64,000 nucleotides of DNA from Cellvibrionaceae bacterium (GTDB lineage Bacteria > Pseudomonadota > Gammaproteobacteria > Pseudomonadales > Cellvibrionaceae), in assembly GCA_050633365.1 (NCBI GenBank), contig JBOEGJ010000003.1, positions 1,172 to 65,171 of the forward strand, read 5' to 3'. Below the pieces are notes generated by a model. The model saw only the letters and a list, made by a program, of their open reading frames with translations, had not been told where the DNA came from and ran no database searches. Each line of letters starts with the position of its first letter. Within the stretch, counting starts at the first letter, position 1. Below are positions 36,827 through 47,261 of this stretch, one piece after another. Made by a program: the position numbers and the translations under genes.

Positions 36827-36985
36827 GGTCAGAACTACTGAAATGATGGCCTCGGGGGTGCCGGGCGAGTGATAGATGGTCGCTGTTTGCGTGTCTAGCA
36901 GGCAGCGCGATGTAATGGAGGCGCAGTGTACCATGCAGAGGGCAGAATGCCAGTTGTGGGCAGAAGGCGAGAATATGACTGGTCT

Positions 36986-37019
36986 AGAAATGAAAACGGG
37001 AAAGCCTTAGCTTTCCCGT
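36986..37019 (-). terminator. Rho-independent terminator of the CrcZ-like RNA
   Basis: Perfect 10-bp stem ACGGGAAAGC/GCTTTCCCGT (36996-37019) with 4-nt loop, followed on the minus strand by TTTCATTT. Confidence 0.85.
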
Positions 37020-37283
37020 AGAATTTTTTCTTATTGTCCTAGTTTTATTGTGCCGCAAAAGTATTGGCTTCCTTGCTTTGCGGTAATTTGCTCTGTGGCA
37101 AATCCTCTCCAAGTTTTTAGTCAGTTGTAACAGTCAGTTTTAACGCTTTGTTATTATTGTTTTTTGTTGTTATTAGTTTTATCTATCTTTTTATTATTAT
37201 TTGTTGTTTTTATTATTCAGTTTTACTTTTTTATTATTATTTATTGTTGTTATTTTTATAGTTGTAATTTGTTTTTATTATGC
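36988..37283 (-). ncRNA. crcZ: CrcZ-like Hfq/Crc-sequestering sRNA (about 295 nt)
   Basis: Lies between cbrB and pcnB, bounded by a sigma54 promoter and a terminator, has no ORF and is packed with AANAANAA runs; starts GCATAATAAAAACAA. Confidence 0.85.
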
Positions 37284-45338: not shown

Positions 45339-46379
45339 TTATGGTGTCGACTTGGCTAAAGTTAACTGAGTGTGTCTGACCTTGCCGCCGCGCACAAAGT
45401 CCAGTTTAACACGATCTCCAGGCTTGTATTTCTCCAGCGCACTGAGAAGATCGTCGTAGTTTTCGACCACTTCCGACCCCAATCCAATGATGACATCTCC
45501 CAGCACTACCGATCCCCATTGATTGCGCTTTACTCCTTGCAGACCTGCCTTTGCTGCCGGTGCTCCGCGGCTCACTTTTAAGATGGGCACACCTTTGAGT
45601 CCGTATCTTTGTGCCCAGTGACTGGGACCAATTTCAATGCCCAAAGAAGGGCGTTGAAGGCGACCATTGGCGATTAGGTTCGGGACAATGCGCTTTACCG
45701 TATTGATGGGGATCGCAAAACCGATGCCTACACTGGCGCCGCTGGGACTATAAATTGCTGTGTTAATACCAATGAGTTCGCCGTTCGAATTAATCAGTGG
45801 ACCACCGGAGTTACCGGGGTTGATGGCGGCATCGGTTTGAATAACATTGCGGATGGTGCGTTGATTACTCGATTGAATTTCTCGCTCCAAGGCGCTGACT
45901 ACTCCTACGGTCAGGGTTGTATCGAGGCCAAAAGGATTGCCGATGGCCAGCACTTTGTGGCCTACGCTCAAACGATTTGAATCCCCCAGAGGCAGTGCCG
46001 AGAGTTTATCCGCCGGCGCCTGGATTTTTAGTACGGCTAGATCTTTTGAGGGGGCGATGCCGACCACCTTTGCCGGCCAGCTGCTTTGGTCTTGTAGGGT
46101 AATGGTGATTTTGTTGGCACCATCGATGACGTGGTAATTGGTAATGATGGTTCCATCTTGATTCCAGATCACCCCCGTGCCGGTACCTCGAGGTACAGCT
46201 CGCACATCGTAGCTGTAGCGATCTCGGACTATGGTTTGATTGGTAACGTAAACCACCGAAGGGCTGGCATGTTGAAAAACTTGGATGGTATTTTTTTCGT
46301 CGTCGGTAGAAAACCGCTGGGCGAAAGTCGAGGCTGCCATAAGTAACGATAGGGTGCCGATCAACAGTCGTTTTAGCAT
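45339..46379 (-). CDS. HtrA/HhoA-type periplasmic serine protease with one PDZ domain
   Basis: Signal peptide; TNYHV, DLAV, AAINPGNSGG triad; C-terminal PDZ. Confidence 0.93.
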   Translation of the reverse strand: MLKRLLIGTLSLLMAASTFAQRFSTDDEKNTIQVFQHASPSVVYVTNQTIVRDRYSYDVRAVPRGTGTGVIWNQDGTIITNYHVIDGANKITITLQDQSSWPAKVVGIAPSKDLAVLKIQAPADKLSALPLGDSNRLSVGHKVLAIGNPFGLDTTLTVGVVSALEREIQSSNQRTIRNVIQTDAAINPGNSGGPLINSNGELIGINTAIYSPSGASVGIGFAIPINTVKRIVPNLIANGRLQRPSLGIEIGPSHWAQRYGLKGVPILKVSRGAPAAKAGLQGVKRNQWGSVVLGDVIIGLGSEVVENYDDLLSALEKYKPGDRVKLDFVRGGKVRHTQLTLAKSTP

Positions 46380-46653: not shown

Positions 46654-46755
46654 AAAAAAAGGGGCCACCTTTTCGGGTGGCCCAACAACCGTGATTAGCC
46701 TGTTTAGGAGAGAAGGTCATGAGGACCTAAACTCAACCGCCTCTTTCGAAGCGAT
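46654..46755 (-). ncRNA. prrF: PrrF-like iron-responsive sRNA (about 102 nt)
   Basis: Minus-strand core CTCCTAAACAGGCTAATCACGGTT resembles the PrrF seed as I recall it; 5' GAAA-tetraloop hairpin, terminator GGGCCACC/GGTGGCCC + 7 U, Fur-box-like sigma70 promoter. Confidence 0.85.
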
Positions 46756-46761
46756 GGGGTA

Positions 46762-46809
46762 ATAATAATCGTTCTCAGTTATTTGTCAATAAAAATAATT
46801 CTCATTTGT
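46762..46809 (-). promoter_or_regulatory. sigma70 promoter overlapped by two Fur-box-like sequences
   Basis: TTGACA (46789-46784), 16 nt, TATTAT (46767-46762); ACAAATGAGAATTATTTTT and ATAACTGAGAACGATTATT match 12/19 and 11/19 of GATAATGATAATCATTATC. Confidence 0.78.
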
Positions 46810-46982: not shown

Positions 46983-47261
46983 TTAAGTTTCGCTGGCTAA
47001 GGCTTCTTCAGCATCGGCAACCAGTCGCTGTTTCAGGTCTTGTTCTAGATCATTCCAATGAACGTCTAGCAAGGCGCCTTGAAGTGCGTACAGCATTACC
47101 TTCGAGACGTGAATGCCTCTGGCTTTGATGCGAATATAGGCTTCTACAGGGCCCATGTTATTTAAGTCGGCGTAAGAATTAACGCCTATCGCGTGCAGAA
47201 TATTAACTGAGGCTGCCCCCAGGTTTTTGAGCTGGAGCAAATCACTATGACTATCCGTCAT
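46983..47261 (-). CDS. TfoX/Sxy C-terminal-domain protein
   Basis: LLQLKNLGAAS, MGPVEAY, SKVMLYALQGALLDVHW. Confidence 0.9.
   Translation of the reverse strand: MTDSHSDLLQLKNLGAASVNILHAIGVNSYADLNNMGPVEAYIRIKARGIHVSKVMLYALQGALLDVHWNDLEQDLKQRLVADAEEALASET

What the first reader, a model, noticed from the sequence alone, without database searches (positions are those of the whole stretch)
46654..46809. Unannotated PrrF-like iron-sparing sRNA with a Fur-box-like promoter
Seen (minus strand): TTGACA-N16-TATTAT overlapped by two Fur-box-like 19-mers. The predicted 102-nt RNA is ATCGCTTC-GAAA-GAGGCGGT (tetraloop hairpin), AGGTC/GACCT hairpin, single-stranded CTCCTAAACAGGCTAATCACGGTT, then a GC-rich terminator with 7 U. 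Established: Pseudomonas PrrF and Azotobacter ArrF are Fur-repressed sRNAs that silence iron-using proteins. From memory the P. aeruginosa seed reads CUCCUCAUCAGGCUAAUCACGGUU, so the CAGGCUAAUCACGGUU core appears conserved while the 5' half differs. Inference: a single-copy PrrF ortholog in a different lineage, with no heme-uptake genes next to it.
Basis: partly seen in the sequence, partly recalled or inferred. Interest (0 to 1): 0.85.

Follow-up and report, generated by a model that had tools for sequence, protein, structure and literature searches.

The report
PrrF-type iron small RNA in Pseudomaricurvus
The stretch is a real, unannotated gene for a roughly 102-base regulatory RNA related to PrrF, the iron-starvation small RNA of Pseudomonas; it lies in a marine Cellvibrionaceae bacterium, and relatives occur in many families of the same order that the standard RNA-family threshold misses.

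Summary
On the minus strand there is a TTGACA-N16-TATTAT promoter. It is overlapped by the best Fur-box match in the whole 64-kb window (15/19) and by a second match (13/19). A 102-nt RNA follows: 5' hairpin, second hairpin, open stretch UCUCCUAAACAGGCUAAUCACGGUU, GC terminator and 7 U.

The Rfam PrrF model matches full length at 70.9 bits (E 8e-12), below its gathering score of 90, so it goes unannotated. A model built only from this genus's RNAs finds canonical Pseudomonas PrrF in return. The gene lies beside the same TfoX_C gene as above-threshold PrrF genes. Helices covary (92.5% paired against 58.7% shuffled). All 57 related promoters carry a Fur box. The genome (genus Pseudomaricurvus by inference) has one copy, plus Fur and Hfq, and no heme genes nearby.

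The genome lacks sodB, and predicted target energies do not beat shuffled seeds. Only one candidate, a gamma-carbonic-anhydrase-like gene with a GUG start, keeps its pairing across species.

Similar sub-threshold RNAs occur in at least eight further families of the order.

Verdict: a new member of a known kind, of moderate interest.

The parts
46785..46803 (-). Distal Fur-box-like 19-mer overlapping the -35 hexamer
   Evidence: It matches the Fur consensus at 13/19. The motif AAATGAGAAnnATT is conserved at this position in homologous promoters.
46784..46789 (-). -35 hexamer TTGACA
   Evidence: Promoter scan: 11/12 consensus matches with a 16-nt spacer. It is conserved at a fixed distance in 31 Cellvibrionaceae homologues.
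46758..46776 (-). Proximal Fur-box-like 19-mer overlapping the -10 hexamer
   Evidence: It matches the consensus at 15/19 and is the only match of that strength in the 64-kb window. All 57 homologous promoters score 13/19 or better, against 2.6% of random 140-nt windows.
46762..46767 (-). -10 hexamer TATTAT
46654..46755 (-). Predicted 102-nt PrrF-family sRNA. The 5' end is inferred from the -10 spacing and the 3' end from the U tract.
   Evidence: Rfam PrrF model: 70.9 bits, E 7.7e-12, model positions 1-150. Fold z-score -4.18. The RNA-only model R1 scores 119 bits here and 37-53 bits on canonical PrrF.
46736..46755 (-). 5' hairpin P1 (AUCGCUUC-GAAA-GAGGCGGU), RNA nt 1-20
   Evidence: All 8 pairs show changes on both sides across 57 distinct homologues, with 87.8% of cells paired.
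46714..46728 (-). Second hairpin P2 (AGGUC-CUCAU-GACCU), RNA nt 28-42
   Evidence: In the model alignment 4 of 5 pairs change on both sides. This region varies in length between lineages.
46687..46711 (-). Open, conserved seed: anti-Shine-Dalgarno UCUCCU, a variable triplet AAA, and the core CAGGCUAAUCACGGUU (RNA nt 45-69)
   Evidence: It is invariant in all Cellvibrionaceae copies except the triplet. The core GCUAAUCACGGUU recurs in most copies from other families. In the fold ensembles printed for nine homologues, the mean unpaired probability of the seed was 0.49-0.67 against 0.27-0.35 for the rest of the RNA; the script stopped on a tenth.
46654..46683 (-). Intrinsic terminator: an 8-bp GC stem, a 6-nt loop, then C and U7
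   Evidence: All 8 pairs covary and 98% of cells are paired across homologues.

Best explanation
This is a single-copy gene for a PrrF-family small RNA in a Cellvibrionaceae bacterium (genus Pseudomaricurvus by inference). Inferred mechanism: when iron is plentiful, Fe-Fur occupies two operator sites that cover the -35 and -10 hexamers and blocks sigma-70 transcription. When iron is scarce the promoter fires and makes a roughly 102-nt RNA that ends at its own intrinsic terminator. The RNA holds two 5' hairpins, a largely open 25-nt seed (anti-Shine-Dalgarno UCUCCU plus CAGGCUAAUCACGGUU) and a U-tailed terminator suited to Hfq binding. The seed pairs with translation-initiation regions of mRNAs and lowers their translation and stability, which spares iron. 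Shown here: the sequence anatomy, homology to PrrF, positional orthology, covariation of the helices, conservation of the Fur box, and the presence of fur and hfq. Inferred only: Fur repression, expression, Hfq dependence and the identity of the targets. The best current candidate target in this genome is a gamma-carbonic-anhydrase-like gene whose GUG start region is complementary to the seed. In relatives that have sodB, its 5' UTR is also a candidate.
For: 1. Rfam PrrF model: full length, 70.9 bits, E 7.7e-12; the next best family has E 0.55.
2. Reciprocal test: model R1, built only from 7 Pseudomaricurvus RNA sequences without promoters, finds above-threshold Pseudomonadaceae PrrF loci at 37-53 bits, E 1e-5 to 4e-9.
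3. The seed is identical to canonical PrrF except for the triplet.
4. Synteny: a TfoX_C gene lies just upstream in all Cellvibrionaceae loci and about 1 kb upstream of PrrF loci that score 127-150 bits. Rieske and SfsA genes lie downstream in many loci.
5. Structure: 92.5% of cells paired against 58.7% in shuffles; covariation score 0.719 against 0.19 in shuffles and 0.03-0.15 in slid controls; 20 of 21 pairs change on both sides.
6. Fur box: the best match in the window lies on the -10. All 57 homologous promoters score 13/19 or better and 50 score 14/19 or better, against 0.8% of random windows at 14/19 or better.
7. Fur and Hfq genes are present, and the genome holds one exact seed copy.
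8. The RNA is present in 9 of 10 congeneric genomes.
9. Function in relatives: with the same scoring, validated-type Pseudomonas PrrF/sodB pairs give -6.7 to -12.5 kcal/mol in three of four genomes. Halioxenophilus sodB gives -10.8, and Pseudomaricurvus sodB gives -5.1 to -7.8 in 4 of 7 genomes.
10. The gamma-carbonic-anhydrase-like start region (ACC GUG AUA/AUU GCC GAY UUA) ranks first of 4084 in this genome (-12.96). Its pairing is kept in 5 other species with the RNA, and G002 keeps part of the site (-3.3). It is degraded in the congener without a detectable RNA.
Against: 1. The Rfam score is below the curated gathering score (70.9 against 90), so by Rfam's own rule it is not a family member.
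3. This genome has no Fe/Mn superoxide dismutase gene, the archetypal PrrF target.
4. sdhC, bfr and the large aconitase rank only 894, 237/430 and 134 of 4084 in my interaction scan.
5. Six shuffled seeds gave top interaction energies as good or better (-9.6 to -16.8) on half the genes, so single-genome target ranks carry no statistical weight.
6. The second- and third-ranked predicted targets (a histidine kinase and a Usp-like protein) are not conserved in relatives.
7. The conserved pairing at the gamma-carbonic-anhydrase-like gene lies in coding sequence, so it is partly explained by protein conservation.
Confidence: 0.8

Rival explanations
1. It is a true PrrF homologue, but its regulon has been rewired away from classical iron sparing. 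It would control a small lineage-specific set of genes (for example the gamma-carbonic-anhydrase-like gene) rather than sodB, sdh, acn and bfr.
For: sodB is absent from this genome and from two congeners that keep the RNA. The classical targets show no strong complementarity. The complementary GUG-start site in the gamma-carbonic-anhydrase-like gene is confined to one clade of the genus; deeper orthologues start with AUG and a different N-terminus.
Against: The Fur-box promoter is strictly conserved, so the input signal is still most likely iron. The seed is invariant across families, which argues for several old, shared targets. sodB pairing is predicted in relatives. My target scan is too weak to exclude classical targets.
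Confidence: 0.12
2. It is a cis-acting, Fur-controlled leader or attenuator of the downstream DegP-like protease gene (45339-46379, same strand) and not a free-standing RNA.
For: The protease gene lies 275 nt downstream on the same strand.
Against: The terminator is strong, with 8 bp (7 of them GC) and U7. In six other Pseudomaricurvus genomes the protease gene is missing from this position and the RNA gene is followed directly by the Rieske gene. In other families the downstream genes differ, yet the RNA is conserved. Several genera carry tandem arrays of the unit.
Confidence: 0.03
3. It encodes a small protein: a 22-codon ORF (AUG at RNA nt 36, MTFSPKQANHGCWATRKGGPFF) would be the functional product.
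For: An AUG-initiated frame runs through the seed and terminator (read from the sequence).
Against: There is no Shine-Dalgarno sequence upstream. The AUG is absent in Pseudoteredinibacter and in family f5 copies. The downstream frame runs through the covarying terminator stem. The seed is invariant at all three codon positions.
Confidence: 0.02

Closest known systems
PrrF1/PrrF2 of Pseudomonas (Rfam RF00444; Wilderman et al. 2004, as summarised in PMC2851614 and PMC4211561)
   Same: It has a sigma-70 promoter overlapped by Fur boxes, a 5' hairpin with a 4-nt loop, the open core UCUCCU-NNN-CAGGCUAAUCACGGUU and a GC terminator with a U tract. It sits at the same tfoX_C-linked chromosomal position. 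The Rfam model matches full length at E 8e-12.
   Different: It is 102 nt rather than 114-116 nt, because the middle domain is shorter. The triplet is AAA instead of CAU. It is a single copy rather than two. It scores 70.9 bits against 127-159 bits for Pseudomonadaceae copies. The host is in Cellvibrionaceae, has no adjacent heme genes and has no sodB.
ArrF of Azotobacter vinelandii (Jung and Kwon 2008, cited in PMC2851614)
   Same: ArrF is a single iron-repressed PrrF homologue outside the genus Pseudomonas, reported to regulate sodB and FeSII.
   Different: Azotobacter belongs to Pseudomonadaceae, whereas this RNA is in another family. I did not fetch an ArrF sequence, so the comparison rests on the literature only.
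RyhB (Rfam RF00057) of Enterobacteria and Vibrio
   Same: It follows the same logic: a Fur-repressed, Hfq-type, terminator-ended sRNA that silences mRNAs of iron-using proteins.
   Different: There is no sequence relationship. RyhB did not appear among the Rfam matches even at E up to 10.

Membership tests
PrrF (Rfam RF00444) | Covariance-model score at or above the curated gathering score (90 bits) | tested here: not met
   The score is 70.9 bits, E 7.7e-12, with the full model 1-150 matched. All hits outside Pseudomonadaceae score 43-84 bits; Pseudomonadaceae copies score 127-159 bits.
PrrF (Rfam RF00444) | Conserved single-stranded core AUCUCCUCAUCAGGCUAAUCACGGUU | tested here: met
   This locus reads UCUCCUAAACAGGCUAAUCACGGUU. 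It differs from canonical copies fetched here only in the triplet. The stretch is mostly unpaired in folds.
PrrF (Rfam RF00444) | Fur box(es) overlapping a sigma-70 promoter | tested here: met
   There are 15/19 and 13/19 matches over the -10 and -35. The feature is conserved in 57 of 57 homologous promoters. Sequence evidence only; Fur binding was not tested.
PrrF (Rfam RF00444) | 5' stem-loop plus Rho-independent terminator, supported by covariation | tested here: met
   (92.5% paired; 20 of 21 pairs with compensatory change). The alignment was fitted to the model, which favours the structure, but the slid controls stay at 0.15 or below.
PrrF (Rfam RF00444) | Orthologous genomic position | tested here: met
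   The tfoX_C gene lies upstream both in this locus and in above-threshold PrrF loci L128-L134. Rieske or SfsA genes lie downstream in several.
PrrF (Rfam RF00444) | Transcript induced by iron limitation and repressed by Fur | not testable with these tools
No RNA data were available.
PrrF (Rfam RF00444) | Pairs with and represses mRNAs of iron-containing proteins (sodB, sdh, acn, bfr) | tested here: inconclusive
   This genome has no sodB. Other classical targets rank poorly. Shuffled seeds do as well genome-wide. sodB pairing is predicted in congeners and in Halioxenophilus at energies similar to Pseudomonas controls.
PrrF (Rfam RF00444) | Two paralogous copies, distal or tandem (typical of Pseudomonas but not strictly defining) | tested here: not met
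   This genome has one copy. Other Cellvibrionaceae have 2-3 copies.

The most novel reading that the evidence does not exclude
PrrF is not a Pseudomonas/Azotobacter RNA but an ancient family that spans the GTDB order Pseudomonadales. A Fur-box-driven sRNA with the near-invariant core GCUAAUCACGGUU is found in Cellvibrionaceae, in the Saccharospirillaceae/Oceanospirillaceae-type genera Thalassolituus, Oleispira, Oceanobacter and Bacterioplanes, and in at least six further families. Where flanks were compared (Cellvibrionaceae, f5 and Pseudomonadaceae) it sits at a tfoX_C-linked locus. It often forms tandem arrays of 2-3 copies. It persists in genomes that have lost sodB, so its regulon is rewired lineage by lineage; one example would be a gamma-carbonic-anhydrase-like gene that acquired a GUG start complementary to the seed. 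Rfam's gathering score of 90 bits hides all of these copies from routine annotation.
Probability: 0.6. Interest if true: 0.6.

Novelty: new member of a known kind. Interest (0 to 1): 0.45.

Why it matters
PrrF is one of the best-studied iron-sparing RNAs, but the papers I could read treat it as specific to the pseudomonads (plus ArrF in Azotobacter). In 8.4 million full texts I found no paper that links PrrF to Cellvibrionaceae or uses the term "PrrF-like".

Showing that the same RNA exists in marine polysaccharide- and hydrocarbon-degrading Pseudomonadales has four consequences:
- It gives these iron-limited ocean bacteria a testable post-transcriptional iron regulator.
- It provides dozens of diverged natural variants for working out which seed positions and which targets are ancestral.
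- It shows that the tandem arrangement, thought to be special to P. aeruginosa and the basis of PrrH, also occurs elsewhere.
- It gives a concrete reason to rebuild RF00444 or lower its threshold so that genome annotation picks these genes up.

It does not reveal a new kind of mechanism.

Tried and rejected
With a k-mer prefilter it gave thousands of hits at or below -20 kcal/mol, no different from shuffled seeds.
2. duplex_subopt produced unrealistic duplexes with very large loops. I replaced it with my own IntaRNA-like routine, which limits loops to 2 nt and adds accessibility terms.
3. That scan's ranks are not significant against 6 shuffled seeds. Its second- and third-ranked hits fail the conservation test. 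I therefore do not claim a regulon.
4. MAFFT plus RNAalifold on 26 Cellvibrionaceae RNAs found only 4 spurious pairs, because the 5' halves are too diverged to align by sequence. A model-based alignment solved this.
5. Regex and Pfam searches for Fe/Mn, Cu/Zn and Ni superoxide dismutases in this genome found nothing credible.
6. The weak second Rfam hit in this genome (contig C48, 22 bits, E 0.35) and three near-matches to the 16-nt core are at chance level.
8. Earlier notes of this scan held no look-alike sequence.
9. The ideas of a small ORF and of a degP leader were considered and rejected; see the rival explanations.

Full report
**Observation**

- The promoter scan finds TTGACA (46789..46784), a 16-nt spacer and TATTAT (46767..46762), 11 of 12 consensus positions. 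It also finds an intrinsic terminator: an 8-bp stem with 7 GC pairs at 46683..46662, then C and seven T.
- The 102-nt RNA from 46755 to 46654 folds at -39.5 kcal/mol. Shuffles average -27.0, giving z = -4.18, and none of 200 shuffles is as stable.
- Against the 19-bp Fur consensus, the site over the -10 (46758-46776) matches 15/19 and is the only site of that strength in the whole 64-kb window. The site over the -35 (46785-46803) matches 13/19.

**Identity**

- At Rfam's curated thresholds the window has no RNA family hit.
- With E-value reporting, RF00444 (PrrF) matches 46654-46789 on the minus strand over the whole model, at 70.9 bits and E 7.7e-12. The gathering score is 90. The next family has E 0.55.
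- The Rfam model includes the promoter, so I built a model from seven RNA-only sequences of this genus. It finds loci that score 127-159 bits with the Rfam model, that is canonical Pseudomonadaceae PrrF, at 37-53 bits (E 1e-5 to 4e-9). The homology therefore holds in both directions and does not depend on the promoter.
- In those canonical loci the core reads AUCUCCUCAUCAGGCUAAUCACGGUU. Here it reads UCUCCUAAACAGGCUAAUCACGGUU.

**Organism and distribution**

- The flanking protease is closest to Cellvibrio and Cellvibrionaceae sequences.
- An exact search of one genome per species for TCTCCTWAWCAGGCTAATCACGGTT returned 24 loci, all in Cellvibrionaceae: Pseudomaricurvus, Pseudoteredinibacter, Halioxenophilus, Marinibactrum, Sessilibacter, Exilibacterium and metagenome-assembled genomes.
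The genus name is therefore an inference.
- Nine of ten congeners and four of fourteen other genera sampled in the family carry a hit.
- In a sample of 301 genomes of the GTDB order, only one family scores above the cut-off. That family is Pseudomonadaceae, identified through Stutzerimonas stutzeri V81. Sub-threshold hits (43-84 bits, E at or below 1e-5) occur in eight further families besides this one.
- Reading those loci shows the same unit in five of them: a Fur-box promoter, hairpins...CUCAUCA(G/A)GCUAAUCACGGUU... and a terminator, often in tandem arrays of two or three. One copy each in f44 and f30 departs from the core at the 3' end, and the fetched stretches for f23, most of f47 and one f5 genome showed no seed-like match.
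- A second exact search named some carriers: Thalassolituus, Oleispira, Oceanobacter, Bacterioplanes, Bacterioplanoides, Litoribacillus and Litoribrevibacter.

**Orthology by position**

- The neighbours here are SfsA, a Rieske protein, a DegP-like protease, the RNA gene, a TfoX_C-domain protein, VanY and CysE.
- A tblastn search with these proteins shows the TfoX_C gene directly upstream of the RNA gene in all Cellvibrionaceae loci. It lies about 1 kb upstream in seven above-threshold Pseudomonadaceae loci and in family f5. Rieske or SfsA genes lie downstream in many loci.
- The protease is present at this spot in only some genomes. This excludes the idea that the RNA is its leader.

**Structure and promoter conservation**

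- Sequence alignment alone could not align the diverged 5' halves.
- On the model-based alignment of 57 distinct sequences, 92.5% of cells form standard pairs, against 58.7% in shuffles. Twenty of 21 pairs show changes on both sides. The covariation score is 0.719, against 0.19 for shuffles and 0.03-0.15 when partners are slid by 1-3 columns. The alignment was fitted to the model, which favours the structure, but the margin is large.
- Every one of the 57 promoters has a Fur-box match of 13/19 or better, and 50 have 14/19 or better. Only 0.8% of random 140-nt windows of this genome reach 14/19.
- The genome encodes a typical Fur and Hfq and holds exactly one copy of the core.

**Function: what can and cannot be said**

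- This genome has no Fe/Mn superoxide dismutase gene, although 8 of 10 congeners do.
- I wrote an accessibility-aware interaction scan over 4084 predicted start regions. The top hit is a gamma-carbonic-anhydrase-like hexapeptide protein on contig C20:113637-114161, at -12.96 kcal/mol. Its GUG start region UAACCGUGAUAGCC pairs with GGCUAAUCACGGUUG. Aconitase, bacterioferritins and sdhC rank 134, 237/430 and 894.
- Six shuffled seeds gave equally good or better top scores, so these ranks alone mean little.
- I therefore tested conservation.
  - The gamma-carbonic-anhydrase site (CC GUG AUU/AUA GCC GAY UUA) is kept, with energies of -6.6 to -13.8, in five other species that carry the RNA.
  - The one congener without a detectable RNA has AUC and CUG codons and a different -3..-1 context.
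  - The species whose RNA carries an insertion next to the UAAA segment also has CUG in place of UUA.
  - More distant orthologues start with AUG and a different N-terminus.
  - The second- and third-ranked hits are not conserved, and a cytochrome c site is only partly conserved.
- As a calibration, cognate PrrF/sodB pairs in three of four Pseudomonadaceae genomes score -6.7 to -12.5 with the same method. Halioxenophilus, a Cellvibrionaceae genus, scores -10.8 using UCCUUAUCAG against CUGAUAAGGA. Four of seven Pseudomaricurvus sodB leaders score -5.1 to -7.8 through a conserved AACCGUGAGUUAACC element.
- These results fit a PrrF-like mode of action in the family but do not prove it.

**Comparison with what is known, and verdict**

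- The literature I could read describes PrrF1/PrrF2 in Pseudomonas species, ArrF in Azotobacter, and tandem genes as a peculiarity of P. aeruginosa and two other strains.
- I found no paper that links PrrF to Cellvibrionaceae, and no use of "PrrF-like". The only paper holding both PrrF and Marinobacter is a P. aeruginosa study with a single mention of Marinobacter; I did not open it.
- The finding is therefore a real, unannotated and diverged member of a known RNA family in a new bacterial family. The wider family appears to span the order.
- The mechanism is most likely the known one: Fur-repressed, with seed pairing at ribosome-binding sites. The regulon in this genome is unknown and cannot include sodB.

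Noticed in passing
whole genome G000 (window = contig C3:1172-65171): No Fe/Mn superoxide dismutase gene (PF02777) is detectable in this 99.98%-complete assembly, and regex searches for Cu/Zn and Ni types found nothing credible. Eight of 10 congeners have one. G002 and G005, which keep the sRNA, also lack it.
   Followed up: partly
L006/L115 (Halioxenophilus aromaticivorans), L123 (Sessilibacter corallicola), L103/L105/L120 (Pseudoteredinibacter), L200 (Oceanobacter kriegii), L197 (Bacterioplanoides): PrrF-like genes occur as tandem arrays of 2-3 copies spaced roughly 200-400 nt apart. The literature treats the tandem arrangement as special to P. aeruginosa and as the basis of the heme-responsive read-through RNA PrrH. 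These arrays could give similar read-through products.
   Followed up: no
L011:1500-1618 (G002, same genus): This copy carries an 18-nt insertion that forms its own hairpin (GGGAAGUCUGACUUCCC) between the anti-Shine-Dalgarno UCUCCU and the CAGGCUAAUCACGGUU core. The same genome's gamma-carbonic-anhydrase-like gene has CUG where the others have the seed-complementary UUA.
   Followed up: partly
contig C20:113637-114161 (minus strand) of the window's genome; orthologues L146-L152: The gamma-carbonic-anhydrase-like gene uses a GUG start preceded by CC, with N-terminus V-I-A-D-L-K, only in the core Pseudomaricurvus clade. More distant orthologues start AUG with M-I-Y-x-L. The change creates a 9-nt perfect match (ACCGUGAUU) to the sRNA seed.
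   Followed up: yes
L274 (Halioxenophilus sodB) compared with L269/L271 (Pseudomonadaceae sodB): The variable triplet of the seed (UAU in Halioxenophilus, CAU in Pseudomonas) appears to co-vary with the sequence just upstream of the sodB Shine-Dalgarno: CUGAUAAGGA against GAUGAAGGAGA or CUGAGUGAGAUAGGAGA.
   Followed up: partly
window 36965-37182 (minus strand): There is a weak Rfam match to the Pseudomonas sRNA CrcZ (RF01675): 23.1 bits, E 5e-4, far below the gathering score of 95. It lies where another first-stage note places a CrcZ-like RNA next to cbrAB. This may be a second Pseudomonas-type sRNA that curated thresholds miss in this lineage.
   Followed up: partly
window 46983-47261 (minus strand) and loci L003, L128-L136: A small gene encoding only a TfoX C-terminal domain is linked to the PrrF-type gene in Cellvibrionaceae, family f5 and Pseudomonadaceae. 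I have no explanation for why this linkage has been kept for so long.
   Followed up: partly
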